Below, piece by piece: positions 680 through 12,916 of a stretch of DNA of 12,964 bases; positions within the stretch are counted from its first letter, which is position 1, and each line of letters starts with the position of its first letter. Source of the DNA: a virus. Under the pieces are notes generated by a model. That model had not been told where the DNA came from, did not search any database, and worked only from the letters and a program-made list of their open reading frames with translations. Both the position numbers and the translations under genes were made by a program. Where the stretch lies: the UHGV virus genome UHGV-0179208, one strand, 5' to 3'.

Positions 680-1168
680 TTATGCATAGAGAGCATTGCT
701 ATAGTGTTTAATCCAACTTTCAGGAATGACTTTGTATGTTCCTAAAAATACCACATTGTACAACTTAACACCATCTTCTACCCATTGATCGGTAATATAT
801 CCACACATAGCGCGAGTATAAGCAGCCTTTCCATCATCTTTGATAAATTTAAATTCGCAAGGAGCAATGAACTTAATAGCTTGACCGAGTTTCCACTTAA
901 AGTCTACACCTACATGTGAAGTATCAATCGTTTCAATTCCTTTAGCAGGAACAGCTTTCAAAAACGCAGATTCAAGAAATTTCGCACGAACATAGCCAAA
1001 CTGAGGTTTAGACTTTCCATCTTTAGGAATGATACGCACTTTTACTTCAGAATCTTCATCTTTAACGCCATGTTTAAGCTGAATGCTTACAATTTCGACC
1101 AATTTTCCTGCTGCTTTAGAGCGGGATTTATCAGATACACGAGCTAATTCACCAATATTAATAATCAT
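680..1168 (-). CDS. MotB-position protein, 162 aa (possible MotB-like DNA-binding protein)
   Basis: ORF track. Size (162 aa) and position (three ORFs downstream of dexA in transcription order) match T4 motB as I recall it. Name is tentative; I do not recognise the sequence itself. Confidence 0.45.
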   Translation of the reverse strand: MIINIGELARVSDKSRSKAAGKLVEIVSIQLKHGVKDEDSEVKVRIIPKDGKSKPQFGYVRAKFLESAFLKAVPAKGIETIDTSHVGVDFKWKLGQAIKFIAPCEFKFIKDDGKAAYTRAMCGYITDQWVEDGVKLYNVVFLGTYKVIPESWIKHYSNALYA

Positions 1169-1241: not shown

Positions 1242-1679
1242 CTAGCTTACACGAACATTAATCACTGCGCTGCGAGGAACTACGGAGTACTCTCCAGCAT
1301 GAACTACATTAAGAAGTTCAACGCCATCTTCAATCCACTGGTCAGTTACCCAACCGCCAATCGGATTCGCGAATGGACGACGAATATAAACTGCCTTACA
1401 CAACAAATCAGTCGGGTCTTCAGGTTTTTCAATTTCTGTCAATAGACTAAAATCTTTTTCATAAATAATAAGCGGTGATACCATTCCATAATAGTTTCTA
1501 ATTTCAATATACATCATACCGATAAGAATTCCGCTATTAACACTAATAACAGTAAAAGGATATCCGCCAGTTAAACCAAGAAGTTCACAAAACTTATTAT
1601 GAGCTGTATTAGACAGTACAGAAAAATTCTTAATTTCATCAAATTTTTTCAATTGATAAACAGCATTATTTTTAATCAT
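1242..1679 (-). CDS. hypothetical protein, 145 aa; paralog of the C-terminal half of the 162-aa ORF downstream (motB.1 position)
   Basis: ORF track. Shares TDQW(V/I)EDGV(K/E)L(Y/L)NVV...G(T/E)Y.V(I/V)P with ORF 680..1168. ATG at 1679..1677. Confidence 0.65.
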   Translation of the reverse strand: MIKNNAVYQLKKFDEIKNFSVLSNTAHNKFCELLGLTGGYPFTVISVNSGILIGMMYIEIRNYYGMVSPLIIYEKDFSLLTEIEKPEDPTDLLCKAVYIRRPFANPIGGWVTDQWIEDGVELLNVVHAGEYSVVPRSAVINVRVS

Positions 1680-5067: not shown

Positions 5068-5814
5068 TTATCCTCGGATAAGTTTAAAAATTGAACAATT
5101 TAGCGGGTATCCTCTTTTCAGTTTAAGTTTATCAATAAAAGACAAGTTTTGATACCGCTCTACACCTTGAATAATTTTATCACACATATCATATTGCATT
5201 TCTGCTTCTGACAACTTTTTCACAATTTTCCAATCCGAGCCTTTAAGAAGAACGTTCAGTTTAACAACTTCAGCGCCTTCTGCTATGCGAGAACCATCAA
5301 TACGAGCTTTAAGTGCTATAATCCTTAGCTTAATGTCAGAGGTCTGTTTTGATTTAGAAAGCTGAGAAATGTGTTCAATTCGATTTTCACGTTTTTTCTG
5401 TATAGCTTTAATTTGATTATAAGTCTTTTTGATTTTAGCCCATTTCTTTTCATCTAAATTTAGTTTATGAACTTTTTTCGCAGATGAACGACCAATTCGC
5501 AAAGCAAATAAATCACGCTTTTCAATCAACTCTTCTAAAGTATAATCAGAACGAAATGTATTATACTTTTTCTTTACTGCAATAACATTCCCTTTAATGT
5601 ATCCAATGTTATTATCAAAACGTTCTAATGATAATTTCTCTCCTTCAATACGATTATCAAAAGGTTCTCCCGAGTAAGCACAAACTTTTTGATCTAAAAT
5701 GTTCTTAATGTAATTGAAGTCTAAGTTAAAATCTTTAGAACGTCTTTTTGCAGATGCCTGAGTATGCTCTAAACGACGTTTAATTTTACGAATTTGGTTA
5801 TTAGACAGTTTCAT
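5068..5814 (-). CDS. srd-position protein, 248 aa (possible Srd-like regulator); contains a degenerate HNH-like segment
   Basis: ORF track. Position between dda.1 and modA matches T4 srd. Segment CAYSGEPF...LSLERFDNNIGYIKGNV resembles an HNH fold without the catalytic His. Very K/R-rich. Confidence 0.5.
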   Translation of the reverse strand: MKLSNNQIRKIKRRLEHTQASAKRRSKDFNLDFNYIKNILDQKVCAYSGEPFDNRIEGEKLSLERFDNNIGYIKGNVIAVKKKYNTFRSDYTLEELIEKRDLFALRIGRSSAKKVHKLNLDEKKWAKIKKTYNQIKAIQKKRENRIEHISQLSKSKQTSDIKLRIIALKARIDGSRIAEGAEVVKLNVLLKGSDWKIVKKLSEAEMQYDMCDKIIQGVERYQNLSFIDKLKLKRGYPLNCSIFKLIRG

Positions 5815-9048: not shown

Positions 9049-9254
9049 TACAAAAAGCCTCTTTTGAATTCGACTTGCTTCTCGCCATAATCATATCGAA
9101 TCTCTGCATTAAATTCGACAGAACCATCTGCGTACATCATAAATGAATGCACAACAACTTCTGTAGACCATGGCTGTAGTTCATATTTCTTCATTACATG
9201 CCGCGAAATGATAATATCTAAATCTTCATTTGGTTTAATCCAACGATTTAACAT
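9048..9254 (-). CDS. hypothetical small protein, 68 aa
   Basis: ORF track. ATG at 9254..9252 preceded by GAGGAG and by the early promoter at 9281..9309. Confidence 0.65.
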   Translation of the reverse strand: MLNRWIKPNEDLDIIISRHVMKKYELQPWSTEVVVHSFMMYADGSVEFNAEIRYDYGEKQVEFKRGFL

Positions 9255-9280
9255 AGTGCTCTCCTCTATAAGATAATTCT

Positions 9281-9309
9281 ATTATACCATACTCATTTTA
9301 GAAAGTAAA
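9281..9309 (-). promoter_or_regulatory. T4 early-type promoter (minus strand TTTACT-17-TGgTATAAT)
   Basis: Minus -10 TATAAT = plus 9281..9286 with TGG upstream; -35 TTTACT = plus 9304..9309; exact 17-nt spacer. Confidence 0.6.
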
Positions 9310-9320
9310 CCGGTAAAATG

Positions 9321-9346
9321 AAAAAAGGACTCCCGGAGGAGTCCTT
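9321..9346 (-). terminator. rho-independent terminator downstream of soc
   Basis: Inverted repeat aaggactcc (9325..9333) / ggagtcctt (9338..9346) with 4-nt loop cgga. On the minus strand the GC-rich stem is followed by TTTTTTCATTTT. Confidence 0.7.
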
Positions 9347-9352
9347 GAATTA

Positions 9353-9589
9353 TTAACCACCTATTTCTGTAGGCGTAAACATTGCAGCATTCTTAGTTTT
9401 CCAAGTTGCTGCATCGGAAACTACATCAGAATAAGCTGCTTTTTCTGACGGAAAGATTTGATAATGAGAATCTGCGATACGATGCTCGTTAGAATAAATT
9501 TCAAACGGAACAGAAACTTCCATACCTTTAACTTCTTTGCCTTCACCCGCTGGATGAGTAAAGGTCTTGATGTTAACGAAACCACCCAT
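9353..9589 (-). CDS. soc: Soc, small outer capsid (decoration) protein, 78 aa
   Basis: ORF track. Conserved Soc segments VNIKTF, GKE.SV.F, HYQ.FPSEKAAYS shared with T4 Soc as recalled, but overall diverged. Own late promoter upstream and terminator downstream. Confidence 0.8.
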   Translation of the reverse strand: MGGFVNIKTFTHPAGEGKEVKGMEVSVPFEIYSNEHRIADSHYQIFPSEKAAYSDVVSDAATWKTKNAAMFTPTEIGG

Positions 9590-9620
9590 AATAAACTCCT
9601 TTATTGTTTAATTACAAGTG

Positions 9621-9628
9621 TATTTATA
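9621..9628 (-). promoter_or_regulatory. T4 late promoter core TATAAATA upstream of soc
   Basis: Plus tatttata at 9621..9628 = minus TATAAATA, 32 nt upstream of the soc ATG (9589). The only exact TATAAATA I found on the minus strand. Overlaps the stop of the HNH gene. Confidence 0.7.
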
Positions 9629-10460
9629 ATCCATTTTCAAATCTCTTTATCATGTTTATATAATTTTCGTCAGGATAACCTAGGCTAACTGCTAGTTTTC
9701 TAAAATTGACATATTTAGGTTTGTTGTTATTAATCCATAATTCTCTAAGCTCTTTTTCATAATTCCATTTAAGTTGATTTCTGCGTGCAGTTTTGCTTAA
9801 AGTTTTTCCTTTAGCTTTTAAAGCTTTTTCAGATGACTGTTTTAATTTTTGAATATTTAAAACTTCTTCTATAGATAAATTATTTTCCTTTGAATATCTT
9901 ATGCAAAAATCTTTTACTGCGGCTATTAGGCAATTTTTGTGAGTACCTAAAATTTCTGGGTTATTTTCTTCAACTAAAATTCCCCAATATCTTCGGTAGC
10001 GAGGCATATCTCTTGAAATCCAGTCATTATACCAAAAATCAAAGTTGGAATACATGAAAGATTTTCTTTTACGAAGAGTATCTTGGTTTATCCATTGCTC
10101 ACGTTTATCAGCCCATAACTTAATAGTAAAGTCTTTTTCTGAGTCAGAAAGCTTCTTAAATTGTGAGCTATTTACTGAGGTCATTCTCTGGAATGCATTC
10201 AGCAATCCAAATCTTCCAGTTGAACATAAGAGATAGTGAACATATATGTGTTGATATATTGGGAGATATACTCTATTCCAAGGATGTATTTTAAAATCAC
10301 TATACTCAGGAAATGCGCATTTAGGAAGTATATGATGGGCTTCTGTTTTAGATTTGATGTGAGTGTTTAACTTATATTTATCTATAATTTTTAAGTACTC
10401 ATCTAAAAGTTCCCATTGCGGGAACTTTTCTTTAAGAGCGGATTTGAAATTAATATCCAT
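9624..10460 (-). CDS. HNH-family freestanding homing endonuclease (about 278 aa from the ATG at 10460; ORF track starts at a TTG at 10475)
   Basis: ORF track 9624..10475. HNH motif EAHHILPKC...N.V.L....H...H. C-terminal about 45 aa are about 50% identical to the C-terminus of ORF 10970..11620. Weak Shine-Dalgarno. Start overlaps the 3' end of gene 56. Confidence 0.75.
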   Translation of the reverse strand: MDINFKSALKEKFPQWELLDEYLKIIDKYKLNTHIKSKTEAHHILPKCAFPEYSDFKIHPWNRVYLPIYQHIYVHYLLCSTGRFGLLNAFQRMTSVNSSQFKKLSDSEKDFTIKLWADKREQWINQDTLRKRKSFMYSNFDFWYNDWISRDMPRYRRYWGILVEENNPEILGTHKNCLIAAVKDFCIRYSKENNLSIEEVLNIQKLKQSSEKALKAKGKTLSKTARRNQLKWNYEKELRELWINNNKPKYVNFRKLAVSLGYPDENYINMIKRFENGL

Positions 10461-10968
10461 TATCTTGACGTTCAAAATTATGTTTGTTCTTCAAATAATA
10501 AAGTTTAAAGATTTCTTCAGCCGTAAGACCAAGACCTTGGAACATGTTCAGAACGAAATGAAGAATATCAATCATTTCGAATTTAATTTCCAACTGGTCT
10601 TGTGGAGACAAATCAGTAATCAGAGTTTCACGACGTTCACCATGTTGAGCTTTCCAAGGCTTCCATACAGCAGATGCATCTTTTTCGCCATTGCTCATAC
10701 CACCAAGAGATGTCAGATGTTCACGGAATTCATCATCAATGTAATCTTTCTGATTACGCAGCCAATCAACAACTTCACCAGCAGTAGTCAAATCATCAGG
10801 ATGACGATTATATTCAGGTTTATCTTTAGCTAAACGAACCTGTAGAGATTTCTGCATATCAAGCATAACCTGCAGCGGGTCTTTTTCGTCACCGAGAATA
10901 TCCCAATATTCATTTTGAGCTTTATCTGCACCAGCGATCAGTTGACTACATTCGTTGAAATGTGGCAT
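10450..10968 (-). CDS. 56: dCTP pyrophosphatase (dCTPase-dUTPase, MazG-like), 172 aa
   Basis: ORF track. Size (T4 gp56 is 171 aa as recalled) and position between soc and gene 61. ATG at 10968..10966 preceded by AGGAAA. Sequence not verified by alignment. Confidence 0.7.
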   Translation of the reverse strand: MPHFNECSQLIAGADKAQNEYWDILGDEKDPLQVMLDMQKSLQVRLAKDKPEYNRHPDDLTTAGEVVDWLRNQKDYIDDEFREHLTSLGGMSNGEKDASAVWKPWKAQHGERRETLITDLSPQDQLEIKFEMIDILHFVLNMFQGLGLTAEEIFKLYYLKNKHNFERQDNGY

Positions 10969-10969
10969 G

Positions 10970-11620
10970 TTATTTTTCCTTTCTTATGAAGTTTTCTATC
11001 ATATGTCTATAGCAGATATTAGGATAACCTGCCTTGACAGCTATTTTATTAAATTTTGTGCGTTTAGGTCTATTATTATAAACCCATAATTCATAAAGCG
11101 CATCATAACTATTCCATATTTCTCCTCGCCTAGGATTTGGTAAACCATATCGAGGTGAATTTTTACCGCTAAATCTTCCTTTTCGGGCTTTACTCATATT
11201 AGCCTTGGCTTCATCGGATATAATTTTACCTTTATGAGCTAGACGCATTTTGGCTTTAGTTTCTTCTGGGGTCTTTTTGCCTTTAATCCATGACGGCTTG
11301 CCATATCTAGGATTATTTTCACCCGAGAAAAGAACGGAGTTTTGGATTTTAAGGGTTTCTATTAATCTACTTGTTAATTTAACACCTTTATTATATCGCA
11401 TTAAATTTACAGCATAATGCAATCCTCTCACATCTGGATATATTTTAGTTAATAATCTATGAGCTATAAAATGCTCACGCGCAGTTAACTCAACAAGATT
11501 GTTTTTGCCATCTGTTCCTCCCATACATCTAGGAATTATATGATGGCGTTCTTTATATCCGCCAAGATGCCGGCATTTAGCTTTTGTAATTAAAGCCGAG
11601 TAAATTTTTTGGTAATTCAC
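10970..11620 (-). CDS. HNH-family freestanding homing endonuclease, 216 aa, GTG start
   Basis: ORF track. HNH motif ERHHIIPRCMGGTDGKNNLVELTAREHFIAH; repeated NNPRYGK / KNSPRYGLP NUMOD-like modules; C-terminus paralogous to ORF 9624..10460. Start is GTG at 11620..11618 (in-frame stop at 11636..11638). Confidence 0.8.
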   Translation of the reverse strand: MNYQKIYSALITKAKCRHLGGYKERHHIIPRCMGGTDGKNNLVELTAREHFIAHRLLTKIYPDVRGLHYAVNLMRYNKGVKLTSRLIETLKIQNSVLFSGENNPRYGKPSWIKGKKTPEETKAKMRLAHKGKIISDEAKANMSKARKGRFSGKNSPRYGLPNPRRGEIWNSYDALYELWVYNNRPKRTKFNKIAVKAGYPNICYRHMIENFIRKEK

Positions 11621-11653
11621 ATATATCCTTTCAATTCATGGATTAGTAGATCA

Positions 11654-11680
11654 ATTATACAATAAATATATAAAGCAATA
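11654..11680 (-). promoter_or_regulatory. T4 middle (MotA-dependent) promoter candidate: MotA box tatTGCTTTA, 11-nt spacer, TATAAT
   Basis: Minus TGCTTTA = plus 11671..11677; minus TATAAT = plus 11654..11659. Lies 35-60 nt upstream of the GTG of the HNH gene and would also drive gene 56. Confidence 0.5.
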
Positions 11681-11690
11681 AGGAGGACAT

Positions 11691-11891
11691 ATGGTACAAA
11701 AATTAATGGCACTTGTTAATGCCATCAAAGGTAATAAAAAACGTATAGCTTTTACTATTTCTGCTATGATAGGAATTTTACTTTGGAATTTTGTTTTATC
11801 GCCAGTTGCTATTGCTCATGGCGTTAGTATTCCAGTAATTACTCTTGATACATTCGTAGATTTAGCATTTGCTTTAGTTGGGTTAATTTAA
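11691..11891 (+). CDS. plus-strand small hydrophobic protein, 66 aa (two predicted membrane-spanning segments)
   Basis: ORF track. Canonical AAGGAGG at 11680..11686, 4 nt before the ATG at 11691. Hydrophobic stretches IAFTISAMIGILLWNFVLSPVAIA and VITLDTFVDLAFALVGLI. Its stop overlaps the gene 61 stop on the other strand (TTTAAA, 11887..11892). Confidence 0.5.
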   Translation: MVQKLMALVNAIKGNKKRIAFTISAMIGILLWNFVLSPVAIAHGVSIPVITLDTFVDLAFALVGLI

Positions 11892-12916
11892 ATCTTAGCA
11901 TATTTAGATAGCCGCATTTTAGCCATCAACCCTTGGGCAATATTATTTTTCATATATTCCATAATTTGTTCAGGGGTTGCACCTTCCTTTCTAATCATAT
12001 CATTAACATCTTTTGATTTCCAGGGAGATTTATCCCAAAACATAACCCTTTCTCCTGCATCAACTAATTTAGTCATTCGCTTGATAGTGTCAGGATGACG
12101 AGGTTCATTATCTAAAACCCATACACGTCTATCTTTAAATGGAACAATTTCTAGGTCTAATTGACCGCCTGTAATAGCTATACCATTTTCAATAAAAAGC
12201 GAATCTATAGGTCCTTCTAGAACATATACATCACCGTCTTTAACCCGTTCAACACCATAGATTTTTGTTGCCTCAGGATAAGCTTTGATGGTGATATATT
12301 TTTGGGGAGCATCTTTCTTTAATGCACGTCCTTGAAAAGACTCAGCTTTTCCATTAGCATTATAAATTGGAATAACAAGACGAGGCTCAGGTATTTCCTT
12401 TTTATATGTTCCCGGTGCTATGCTATTAACTAATTTAGGCCATTCGGTTGTAAACCAAAGATATTTCCATTTATCCTTTGGAATACAACGAGCTTTTACA
12501 TATTTTATAATTGGATGGTCTTCCGCCAGTTTATCTAATCTAACACATGACGGAAGAGATTTAATTATTTTCTTCTCAGGCTGCTTAGGAAGTTCTTTAG
12601 GTTTTTCTACTGGACGACTTTTACCTTTTTCTTTTCTTATTTCAAAGATATACTCACGATATAAATCAGGTTCAAACTCCTTTAAATATATTCCGATTGG
12701 TGCATGATAGTTACAGTTATAACAATGAATGTTTCCTTCATTATTATCACCATAATACCATCCACGGGCTTTATTTTGGTCGGTTTTTGAATCTCCACAC
12801 ACTGGGCATCTAAACCGCAATTTAAAAGTTGAACTATTATTTACTTGTGTGAATTTAGGTAAATGAGCTAATGCACGATACGCAAACTCATTATCAATCC
12901 AAGCTATTGATGACAT
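11888..12916 (-). CDS. 61: DNA primase gp61, 342 aa (zinc ribbon plus TOPRIM)
   Basis: ORF track. Zinc ribbon CPVCGDSK...CYNCNYH; TOPRIM-like VLEGPIDSLF and VLDNEPR; 342 aa equals T4 gp61. Confidence 0.88.
   Translation of the reverse strand: MSSIAWIDNEFAYRALAHLPKFTQVNNSSTFKLRFRCPVCGDSKTDQNKARGWYYGDNNEGNIHCYNCNYHAPIGIYLKEFEPDLYREYIFEIRKEKGKSRPVEKPKELPKQPEKKIIKSLPSCVRLDKLAEDHPIIKYVKARCIPKDKWKYLWFTTEWPKLVNSIAPGTYKKEIPEPRLVIPIYNANGKAESFQGRALKKDAPQKYITIKAYPEATKIYGVERVKDGDVYVLEGPIDSLFIENGIAITGGQLDLEIVPFKDRRVWVLDNEPRHPDTIKRMTKLVDAGERVMFWDKSPWKSKDVNDMIRKEGATPEQIMEYMKNNIAQGLMAKMRLSKYAKI

What the first reader, a model, noticed from the sequence alone, without database searches (positions are those of the whole stretch)
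9624..11620. Two paralogous HNH homing endonuclease genes bracketing dCTPase gene 56
ORFs 10970..11620 and 9624..10460 both carry HHI(I/L)P(R/K)C HNH cores and share a C-terminal domain of about 45 residues at about 50% identity (W.N..ELW..NN.PK...F.K.AV..GYP...Y..MI..F). They sit directly on either side of gene 56, with the downstream one overlapping the gene 56 stop. In T4, the neighbourhood of gene 56 is the target of the GIY-YIG endonuclease SegF; here the same locus carries two endonucleases of a different family. Both have poor initiation signals (GTG start; weak Shine-Dalgarno), typical of freestanding homing endonucleases. This suggests repeated independent invasion of the 56 locus and possible marker exclusion against related phages.
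Basis: partly seen in the sequence, partly recalled or inferred. Interest (0 to 1): 0.65.

Follow-up and report, generated by a model that had tools for sequence, protein, structure and literature searches.

The report
Two selfish nuclease genes flanking gene 56
A T4-like phage carries two unrelated-by-descent mobile HNH "homing endonuclease" genes inserted precisely on either side of its essential dCTPase gene; this is a clean but ordinary example of a well-known kind of selfish phage DNA.

Summary
The window is the 61–56–soc early region of a Tequatrovirus (T4-like phage). ORF2 (10970-11620) and ORF1 (9624-10460), both on the minus strand, flank gene 56 (10450-10968). Both have an intact HNH core and share a 49-residue C-terminal module at 47% identity.

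They belong to the Mob-type family of free-standing HNH homing endonucleases, but they are not a local duplication: each has more than 150 closer relatives elsewhere.

Both are sporadic inserts. Of 855 phage records matching the region, about 31 carry ORF1, about 60 carry ORF2 and 8 carry both.

- **ORF2** is a 649-bp insert flanked by a 7-bp repeat that is gene 56's Shine-Dalgarno sequence.
- **ORF1** fills the slot that segF fills in T4. It uses the same ATG inside the gene 56 tail, has the same 11-nt overlap, has a hairpin at the equivalent position, and its stop codon lies inside the soc late promoter.

Each insert travels with a short gene 56 tract, even into Klebsiella phages of another genus, where the endonuclease is 92-97% identical and its neighbours 61-79%. 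That is a homing footprint. Cleavage and marker exclusion remain inferred.

Verdict: new members of a known kind, already auto-annotated in GenBank. Interest is modest.

The parts
10970..11620 (-). ORF2: free-standing MobE-like HNH + NUMOD3 homing endonuclease gene (216 aa, GTG start)
   Evidence: ORF. PHROG 655, 1.3e-59. Pfam NUMOD3 29.5 bits, above the cut-off. About 45% identical to annotated mobE over aa 1-165. Absent from Kha5h and others.
11462..11554 (-). ORF2 HNH catalytic core (aa 23-53: E23 H25 H26 N40 H49 H53)
   Evidence: These columns are invariant or nearly invariant in a 99-sequence alignment. The family profile aligns this stretch to the HNH motifs of McrA, a group II intron maturase and Cas8f-HNH. 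AlphaFold predicts strand-strand-helix here.
11141..11314 (-). ORF2 NUMOD3 repeats / linker (aa ~103-160)
   Evidence: Pfam NUMOD3, 2 stretches. This is the most diverged part of the gene in the Klebsiella-phage copy.
10988..11131 (-). ORF2 C-terminal three-helix module shared with ORF1 (aa 164-211)
11626..11632 (-). Upstream copy of the 7-bp direct repeat GAAAGGA; original gene 56 Shine-Dalgarno, now serving ORF2
   Evidence: Homology to the insert-free Kha5h resumes at 11626.
10977..10983 (-). Downstream copy of GAAAGGA inside the last codons of ORF2; now serves as the SD of gene 56
   Evidence: Homology to Kha5h ends at 10983, and the two segments overlap by 7 bp.
11654..11678 (-). T4-type middle promoter (MotA box TTGCTTTA, 11 nt, TATAAT) upstream of ORF2 and gene 56
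   Evidence: Sequence. The same stretch is annotated 'predicted middle promoter' in fPS-2. It is present unchanged in insert-free relatives.
10450..10968 (-). Gene 56 (dCTPase/dUTPase), the bracketed essential gene
   Evidence: Pfam dUTPase_2. Annotated as gene 56 / dCTP pyrophosphatase in relatives.
10929..10968 (-). First ~40 nt of gene 56 that travel with ORF2 (co-conversion tract)
   Evidence: Identical in 10 of 11 ORF2+ loci, including a Jiaodavirus whose gene 56 then diverges. 10/11 ORF2+ loci vs 2/11 ORF2- loci carry it.
10450..10491 (-). Last 42 nt of gene 56 that travel with ORF1 (and with segF in T4); contains ORF1's ATG
   Evidence: Identical in all 8 ORF1+ Tequatrovirus loci of the panel and in T4. 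16 of 42 positions differ from the allele in loci without either endonuclease.
9624..10460 (-). ORF1: free-standing Mob-type HNH homing endonuclease gene (278 aa, ATG start inside the gene 56 tail)
   Evidence: ORF. PHROG 655, 4.5e-33. 774 relatives in an exhaustive HMMER search. Absent from IME340 and others.
10236..10337 (-). ORF1 HNH catalytic core (aa 42-75: H42 H43 N62 H71 H75)
   Evidence: Nearly invariant columns in a 110-sequence alignment. hhalign to the ORF2 family gives 99.8% probability, E=2.3e-27. Predicted strand-strand-helix.
10405..10429 (-). Terminator-like hairpin inside the 5' end of ORF1 (10-bp stem, then UUUU)
   Evidence: RNA fold z=-3.4. Annotated 'terminator' in fPS-2. 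T4 segF has a different hairpin at the equivalent place (PMC2988022).
9639..9785 (-). ORF1 C-terminal three-helix module shared with ORF2 (aa 226-274)
9621..9628 (-). soc late promoter TATAAATA; contains ORF1's stop codon and marks the right edge of every insert at this site
   Evidence: The only TATAAATA in the window. All occupants of the site end here.
9353..9589 (-). soc (small outer capsid protein), downstream neighbour
   Evidence: Pfam Soc, 8e-18.

Best explanation
ORF1 and ORF2 are two independently acquired, free-standing Mob-type HNH homing endonuclease genes. They lie in the two intergenic gaps that flank the essential dCTPase gene 56 of a T4-like phage.

**Shown here**
- Both have intact HNH catalytic residues and belong to one family of phage homing endonucleases.
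- Both are precise inserts that are present or absent among near-identical phages.
- Each is built so that it does not disturb its neighbours. ORF2 takes over gene 56's Shine-Dalgarno and supplies a new copy inside its own last codons. ORF1 starts at an ATG inside the last codons of gene 56 and stops inside the soc late promoter.
- Each is tightly linked to a short gene 56 tract: about 40 nt at the 5' end for ORF2, and 42 nt at the 3' end for ORF1.
- Each has crossed genus boundaries together with that tract.

**Inferred, by analogy with T4 MobE and SegF**
- In a mixed infection the enzyme nicks or cuts the insert-free allele in or next to the adjacent end of gene 56.
- The T4 recombination machinery repairs the break from the insert-bearing genome. 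This copies in the endonuclease gene and the neighbouring gene 56 tract, and so excludes the rival phage's markers locally.
- The linked gene 56 tract carries the substitutions that make the carrier immune to its own enzyme.
- Expression is kept low. ORF2 has a GTG start on the gene 56 middle-promoter transcript. ORF1 depends on re-initiation at an 11-nt overlap, followed by a terminator-like hairpin inside its 5' coding region.
For: **Identity**
- PHROG 655 'homing endonuclease' matches both over full length. NUMOD3 is above threshold in ORF2.
- HNH residues are invariant across the family alignments.
- The ORF2 family profile hits solved HNH domains (McrA E=0.004, intron maturase E=0.011).
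- The ORF1 and ORF2 profiles align at 99.8% probability.
- AlphaFold models (pLDDT 87 and 86) show strand-strand-helix at the motif.
- 21 of 110 ORF1 relatives carry NUMOD3.

**Mobility**
- Counts in the phage database: 855 records match the region, ORF1 at >=80% identity in about 31, ORF2 in about 60, both in 8.
- Single-occupancy genomes exist: Kha5h and IME340.
- ORF2 is flanked by a 7-bp GAAAGGA repeat.
- ORF2 sits directly before gene 56 whether dam or dam.1 lies upstream.
- The empty soc/56 site reads TAA-GT-TATAAATA, and every occupant ends at that promoter.

**Transfer between genera**
- In Klebsiella Jiaodavirus 15882-6-1, ORF2 is 92% identical, against gp56 77%, gp61 61% and soc 68%. 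The high-identity block ends 40 nt into gene 56.
- In Klebsiella phage Phi_KR8, ORF1 is 97% identical, against gp56 79% and gp61 61%. It has the same gene 56 tail and has since been hit by a nonsense mutation.
- In Gaprivervirus DK-13, ORF1 is 88% identical, against gp56 70%.

**Linkage**
- The gene 56 3' tail is present in 9/9 ORF1 or segF loci and 0/13 others. The 5' tract is present in 10/11 ORF2+ loci and 2/11 ORF2- loci.

**Precedents**
- SegF: inserted at soc/56, target gene 56, 11-bp overlap, terminator in the 5' coding region (PMC2988022).
- MobE nicks the 5' end of the gene downstream of its insertion and co-converts the flanks (PMC2790892).
Against: - No cleavage, nicking or homing was or could be tested here, and the target sites are unknown.
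- The Pfam HNH model is below its cut-off for ORF2 and silent for ORF1.
- Two ORF2-free phages (Kha5h, L009) carry the ORF2-linked gene 56 5' allele, so linkage is not absolute.
- The loci compared are not phylogenetically independent, so the Fisher p-values are only indicative.
- Some copies are decaying (Phi_KR8 nonsense mutation, PYPS2T lost stop codon), so activity of this particular pair cannot be assumed.
Confidence: 0.82

Rival explanations
1. The two genes are defunct or domesticated remnants of homing endonucleases. They no longer cut DNA and persist by hitch-hiking, by drift, or because they now do something else for the phage, such as regulation through their DNA-binding modules.
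For: Decay is seen in relatives: a nonsense mutation in the Phi_KR8 ORF1 copy and a lost stop codon in PYPS2T ORF2. T4 itself carries defunct endonucleases such as I-TevIII (PMC2790892). ORF1 has lost recognisable NUMOD motifs and matches no Pfam model.
Against: Both reading frames are intact here and in nearly all relatives at 95-100% identity. All HNH catalytic residues are retained. Recent transfer between genera with sharp co-conversion boundaries indicates activity in the recent past.
Confidence: 0.12
2. ORF1 and ORF2 arose by a local duplication of one endonuclease gene around gene 56, making them true recent paralogues.
For: They are in the same family, have the same domain order, and share a 47%-identical C-terminal module.
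Against: Each ranks only about 150th among the other's relatives. There is no overlap between the top 150 relatives of ORF1 and the top 120 of ORF2. Overall identity is about 21-25%. Each occurs alone in many genomes. The shared C-terminal module is equally similar in endonucleases at other loci.
Confidence: 0.02
3. The presence/absence pattern reflects deletions from an ancestor that carried both genes, through ordinary recombination among T-even phages, and not active invasion.
For: The 7-bp GAAAGGA repeat could mediate precise loss of ORF2. Kha5h and L009 look like such deletion products, with the ORF2-type gene 56 5' allele and no ORF2.
Against: The same slots hold unrelated occupants in other phages: segF, a pair of small ORFs, and dam. 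Truly empty sites exist in more distant genera. The endonuclease genes are far more similar between genera than their neighbours are, which requires gain by transfer.
Confidence: 0.04

Closest known systems
T4 MobE (free-standing HNH homing endonuclease between nrdA and nrdB)
   Same: It is the closest characterised relative of ORF2: about 45% identity over the N-terminal 165 aa to annotated mobE genes. Both are promoter-less cassettes inserted just upstream of an essential nucleotide-metabolism gene. MobE's mapped target lies in the 5' end of the downstream gene and it co-converts flanking DNA (PMC2790892). ORF2 shows the matching footprint in the first ~40 nt of gene 56.
   Different: The locus differs (61/dam-56 rather than nrdA-nrdB), and so does the C-terminal region. 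ORF2 has a GTG start on a captured Shine-Dalgarno. No RBS-sequestering hairpin was found. No biochemical data exist.
T4 SegF (GIY-YIG homing endonuclease between gene 56 and soc)
   Same: ORF1 occupies the identical slot. It has the same 42-nt gene 56 tail, the same ATG (ATGGATATTAA), the same 11-nt overlap, a hairpin at the same distance into the coding region, and it ends at the soc late promoter (PMC2988022). SegF's C-terminus weakly matches the C-terminal module of ORF1/ORF2 (E=6e-4 to 9e-6 among 5270 ORFs).
   Different: The catalytic domain is unrelated: HNH rather than GIY-YIG. There is no other sequence similarity (BLASTP E=0.07). The hairpin sequences are not homologous.
T4 MobC / MobD and MobD-like genes of T6-type phages
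   Same: These are the nearest named relatives of ORF1: 41% over aa 17-121 to an annotated mobC, and 29-30% over nearly full length to MobD-like genes.
   Different: They sit at other loci, identity is low, and none has a characterised target (PMC2988022, Table 1).
SegH / Hef replacing mobC / mobE in T4 relatives (Sandegren et al. 2005; cited from memory, seen only in reference lists)
   Same: It is a precedent for endonuclease genes of different families occupying the same intergenic site in different T-even phages.
   Different: The loci differ, and I did not read the paper.

Membership tests
HNH (beta-beta-alpha-metal) nuclease superfamily | Conserved His (general base), Asn, and His/Asn (metal ligand) motif | tested here: met
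   ORF2: H25/H26, N40, H49, H53 are invariant or nearly so in 99 sequences. ORF1: H42/H43, N62, H71, H75 are nearly invariant in 110 sequences. The ORF2 family profile aligns the motif to McrA, a group II intron maturase and Cas8f-HNH.
HNH (beta-beta-alpha-metal) nuclease superfamily | Score above the curated Pfam HNH (PF01844) gathering threshold | tested here: not met
   ORF2 scores 14.7 bits against a cut-off of 21.4. ORF1 has no hit. Only 2 of 110 ORF1 relatives hit the model. This Mob-type subclass is poorly covered by the model; PHROG profiles and hhalign do detect it.
HNH (beta-beta-alpha-metal) nuclease superfamily | Two strands followed by a helix carrying the motif (fold level) | tested here: inconclusive
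Free-standing (intronless) homing endonuclease genes of T-even phages | Intergenic location, not inside an intron or intein | tested here: met
   Both lie between intact genes. Rfam finds no intron.
Free-standing (intronless) homing endonuclease genes of T-even phages | Sporadic presence/absence among close relatives, with precise insert boundaries | tested here: met
Free-standing (intronless) homing endonuclease genes of T-even phages | Co-conversion of flanking sequence, and lateral transfer detectable as endonuclease identity exceeding flank identity | tested here: met
   ORF2 92% against gp56 77% and gp61 61% in a Jiaodavirus, with a sharp boundary 40 nt into gene 56. ORF1 97% against 79% and 61% in Phi_KR8. 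Linked gene 56 tracts.
Free-standing (intronless) homing endonuclease genes of T-even phages | Site-specific nicking or cleavage of the endonuclease-free allele | not testable with these tools
   Needs enzyme assays or in-vivo break mapping.
Free-standing (intronless) homing endonuclease genes of T-even phages | Endonuclease-dependent super-Mendelian inheritance / marker exclusion in mixed infection | not testable with these tools
   Needs phage crosses.
NUMOD3-containing endonucleases | NUMOD3 motif above the Pfam threshold | tested here: met
   Met for ORF2 only: 29.5 bits against 20.4, in 2 stretches. ORF1 has none, although 21 of 110 of its relatives do.
GIY-YIG Seg endonucleases (SegF) | N-terminal GIY-YIG catalytic domain | tested here: not met
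   ORF1 and ORF2 have no similarity to the SegF N-terminus. Only the genomic slot and a weak C-terminal module match are shared.

The most novel reading that the evidence does not exclude
The soc/56 slot may be a reusable landing pad where one endonuclease replaces another in situ. ORF1 (HNH) and SegF (GIY-YIG) share the same 42-nt gene 56 tail, the same start codon, a hairpin at the same position and a related C-terminal module. One may therefore have displaced the other's nuclease domain or whole gene while inheriting its expression context, and possibly its gene 56 target. Together with ORF2 at the other end, two nickases bracketing gene 56 could drive replacement of the whole essential gene. 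That would explain why gene 56 is only 67-75% identical among phages whose neighbouring genes are 99% identical.
Probability: 0.15. Interest if true: 0.55.

Novelty: new member of a known kind. Interest (0 to 1): 0.3.

Why it matters
If both enzymes are active, this phage holds its essential dCTPase gene between two selfish nucleases. In mixed infections they should force their own gene 56 allele, and themselves, onto related phages. That affects how therapeutic T4-like phages recombine in cocktails, and it may explain part of the unusual diversity of gene 56.

The locus is also a tidy natural experiment. Four alternative occupants of one 2-nt intergenic site, and clear co-conversion boundaries, give concrete target-site predictions for two uncharacterised HNH endonucleases. 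None of this changes the known picture of intronless homing.

Tried and rejected
- **Sequence searches of the PDB.** Single sequences found nothing for either protein. The ORF1 family profile also found nothing.
- **Word-indexed homology search.** It found only 3 relatives of ORF1; the exhaustive HMMER search was needed.
- **IMG/VR.** It holds almost no close relatives of ORF1.
- **RBS-sequestering hairpins.** I looked for the kind described for mobE at the ORF2 and gene 56 starts and found none (z=-0.8 and 0.1).
- **RNA families.** Rfam had no match in the window.
- **Generic sigma-70 promoter scan.** No more hits than in shuffled sequence.
- **Belle et al. 2002 (SegF).** The paper is not held, so SegF facts come from two later papers (PMC2988022, PMC2330249).
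- **Local-duplication idea.** Rejected.
- **C-terminal module as a gene 56-specific DNA reader.** Rejected. The same module, at similar identity, occurs in endonucleases at other loci.
Full report
**1. Context**

The window is the early region of a Tequatrovirus (T4-like phage). All main genes lie on the minus strand:
- primase gene 61 (11888-12916)
- a small plus-strand ORF, dam.1 (11691-11891)
- ORF2 (10970-11620)
- gene 56, dCTPase (10450-10968)
- ORF1 (9624-10460)
- soc (9353-9589)
- further downstream mrh, srd, dda and dexA

Megablast of 9200-12000 finds 855 phage records. The best is 97% identical, and only 8 cover the whole query.

**2. Observation check**

- ORF1's ATG overlaps the end of gene 56 by 11 nt. 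ORF2's stop is 1 nt from the gene 56 ATG.
- The shared C-terminal stretch is 23/49 identical, E=1e-10.
- The N-terminal domains are 35% identical over 57 residues, E=5e-5.

One correction is needed. ORF2 has a GTG start but a good Shine-Dalgarno: GAAAGGA, 5 nt upstream.

**3. What the proteins are**

- Pfam gives NUMOD3 above threshold for ORF2, HNH below threshold for ORF2, and nothing for ORF1.
- PHROG 655 'homing endonuclease' matches both over their full length, at 4.5e-33 and 1.3e-59.
- An exhaustive HMMER search finds 774 relatives of ORF1. In an alignment of 110, H42, H43, N62, H71 and H75 are nearly invariant. 21 of the 110 carry NUMOD3 and a few carry I-HmuI or I-TevI DNA-binding domains.
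- ORF2 has more than 1000 relatives, mostly NUMOD3-positive. E23, H25, N40, H49 and H53 are invariant.
- The ORF2 family profile aligns its motif to solved HNH domains: McrA E=0.004, a group II intron maturase E=0.011, and Cas8f-HNH.
- The two family profiles align with each other at 99.8% probability, E=2.3e-27.
- AlphaFold models (pLDDT 87 and 86) place strand-strand-helix at the motif and a three-helix bundle at the C-terminus.
- The fold searches on ORF1 were uninformative.

**4. Not a local duplication**

Each protein ranks about 150th among the other's relatives. Their top-hit lists do not overlap.

The C-terminal module has the consensus W..y.eLy.LW..NnKPK...F.KiAv..GYPD..Y..Mv..F. It is present in 44 of the 273 sequences examined (271 collected proteins plus ORF1 and ORF2) and in endonucleases at other loci. 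The 47% identity between ORF1 and ORF2 is therefore typical of the module and not specific to this locus.

A profile of the module also picks up the C-terminus of SegF homologues, at E=9e-6 to 6e-4 among 5270 ORFs, with no false positives. This fits the description of segF as a 'hybrid' in PMC2988022.

**5. Insertion polymorphism**

| Feature | Phage records |
|---|---|
| ORF1 at >=80% protein identity | about 31 |
| ORF2 at >=80% protein identity | about 60 |
| segF | 50 |
| pair of small ORFs at the soc/56 site | 252 |
| dam | 184 |

Representative genomes show every combination:
- both: fPS-2, PYPS2T, G2540-3
- ORF1 only: Kha5h, Ec_O157kw, PhiZZ23
- ORF2 only: IME340, Killian, G4498
- ORF1 with dam: ACG-C40
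- ORF2 with dam and the small ORFs: IME537
- segF with dam: T4
- small ORFs with dam: T2

**6. Anatomy of the ORF2 insert**

Relative to Kha5h, the insert is 649 bp and is bounded by a 7-bp direct repeat, GAAAGGA, at 11626-11632 and 10977-10983. In empty sites this heptamer is gene 56's Shine-Dalgarno. The upstream copy now serves ORF2's GTG. The downstream copy lies in ORF2's last codons and serves gene 56.

A T4-type middle promoter lies upstream at 11654-11678 (MotA box TTGCTTTA, 11 nt, TATAAT). It is unchanged in empty sites. ORF2 is therefore a promoter-less cassette riding on the gene 56 transcript.

In IME537, ORF2 lies between dam and gene 56. Its position is tied to the gene 56 start and not to whatever lies upstream.

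**7. Anatomy of the ORF1 insert**

In truly empty sites the gene 56 stop is followed by GT and then the soc late promoter TATAAATA. Every occupant fills this 2-nt gap and ends at the promoter: ORF1 (821 nt), segF (659 nt) and the small ORFs (about 375 nt). ORF1's TAA lies inside the promoter, which is the only TATAAATA in the window.

On the left, all eight ORF1+ Tequatrovirus loci and T4 share an identical last 42 nt of gene 56. That tail contains the ATG used by both ORF1 and segF. It differs at 16 of 42 positions from the allele in loci that carry neither endonuclease. PhiZZ23 has a T2-like gene 56 (70% amino-acid identity to the window) but the ORF1-type tail, which locates a recombination junction.

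A 10-bp hairpin followed by UUUU lies at 10405-10429, inside ORF1's 5' end (z=-3.4). It is annotated as a terminator in fPS-2. T4 segF has a non-homologous hairpin at the same place. The review PMC2988022 records segF's 11-bp overlap and its internal terminator.

**8. Footprints of homing**

- All ORF2+ loci with >=92% protein identity share AAC-ATGCCACATTTCAACGAATGTAGTCA at the gene 56 start. Most ORF2-free loci read A-ATGGCT(C/T)ACTTTAA(T/C)GAATG.
- In Klebsiella Jiaodavirus 15882-6-1, ORF2 is 92% identical while gp56 is 77%, gp61 61% and soc 68%. The high-identity block starts at ORF2's start codon and ends 40 nt into gene 56.
- Klebsiella phage Phi_KR8 carries ORF1 at 97% identity, against gp56 79% and gp61 61%. 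It has the same gene 56 tail, and the endonuclease gene now has a TGG-to-TGA nonsense mutation.
- Gaprivervirus DK-13 carries ORF1 at 88%, against gp56 70%.

These are the expected stages of invasion, co-conversion and decay.

Kha5h and L009 have the ORF2-type gene 56 start but no ORF2. Either ORF2 was lost precisely through the 7-bp repeat, or they represent the allele into which ORF2 first inserted.

**9. Mechanism**

Sections 3 to 8 establish family, architecture, mobility footprints and expression context. The remaining steps are inferred from MobE and SegF. [quoted passage not shown] SegF targets gene 56 and excludes T2 markers (PMC2988022, PMC2330249).
- ORF2's product probably nicks at or near the start of gene 56 in ORF2-free phages.
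- ORF1's product probably acts near the gene 56 stop.
- The linked tracts probably confer self-immunity.
- Repair copies the insert into the rival genome.

No enzymology or crosses could be done here.

**10. Comparison and novelty**

Both genes are already annotated as 'HNH endonuclease' or 'homing endonuclease' in RefSeq records. I found no paper that characterises them.

They are new, uncharacterised members of a well-known kind. The most interesting aspect is that an HNH gene and the GIY-YIG segF use the same landing pad, start codon and gene 56 tail. This points to cassette replacement at a pre-adapted site.

Noticed in passing
window 5068-5814 (-): The srd gene matches the PHROG for Srd anti-sigma factor at 2.5e-108. 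Its N-terminal ~90 residues also match PHROGs named endonuclease, HNH endonuclease and endonuclease VII (1e-18 to 1e-7), which hints at a nuclease-derived domain.
   Followed up: no
window 9353-9589 (-); loci L003, L005, L008, L134-L136: soc exists as two allele classes only about 45% identical in protein within Tequatrovirus, while the adjacent mrh.2 and gene 61 are 99-100% identical. The window has the non-T4 class.
   Followed up: partly
window 10450-10968 (-): Gene 56 is hypervariable within the genus. Protein identity to the window is 67% (T2), 70% (PhiZZ23) and 75% (T4), against 98-99% for gene 61.
   Followed up: partly
L004 2706-2730 (phage ACG-C40), equivalent to window 10405-10429: The loop of the ORF1 5' hairpin is inverted (GCAAT to ATTGC). 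This changes two codons but keeps the stem, so the structure and not the peptide appears to be conserved.
   Followed up: no
L031 1400-4800 (IMGVR_UViG_2974741249): The contig has duplicated gene 61 fragments. It also has a T4-like gene 56 with an internal deletion, followed by the first 20 codons of ORF1 fused to a second, window-type gene 56. This is either a recombinant or a mis-assembly.
   Followed up: partly
L140 785-1534 (phage DK-13): A third HNH endonuclease gene (249 aa, 36% identical to ORF2) sits directly after gene 61 in this Gaprivervirus. The 61-56 interval therefore has at least two distinct insertion points.
   Followed up: no
L141 2501-3333 (Klebsiella phage Phi_KR8): This ORF1 homologue is 97% identical but carries a TGG-to-TGA nonsense mutation, making it a decaying copy in another genus.
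   Followed up: yes
L131 3237-3920 (phage PYPS2T): An extra A before the ORF2 stop (AAAAAATAAC) removes the stop codon, so ORF2 runs 31 nt into gene 56.
   Followed up: partly
L005 3764 (T4), equivalent to window ~10946: The T4 record places replication origin oriA 22 nt inside gene 56. That is within the tract that travels with ORF2, so the ORF2 insert separates the promoter from this point.
   Followed up: no
L006 4019-4389; remnants in L003, L134, L135, L138: The commonest occupant of the soc/56 slot is a pair of small ORFs (66 and 57 aa; 252 records). 'ORF2-only' phages such as IME340 retain only a 30-45-nt remnant of it.
   Followed up: partly
window 680-1168 (-) and 1242-1679 (-): By eye, two adjacent ORFs share a C-terminal motif (..TDQW(V/I)EDGV.L.NVV..G.Y.V.P.S). 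They are probably a small paralogous pair.
   Followed up: no
window 9969-10070 (-), ORF1 aa ~131-164: ORF1 contains a second, degenerate internal copy of its own C-terminal module (BLASTP E=0.004; second domain hit).
   Followed up: partly
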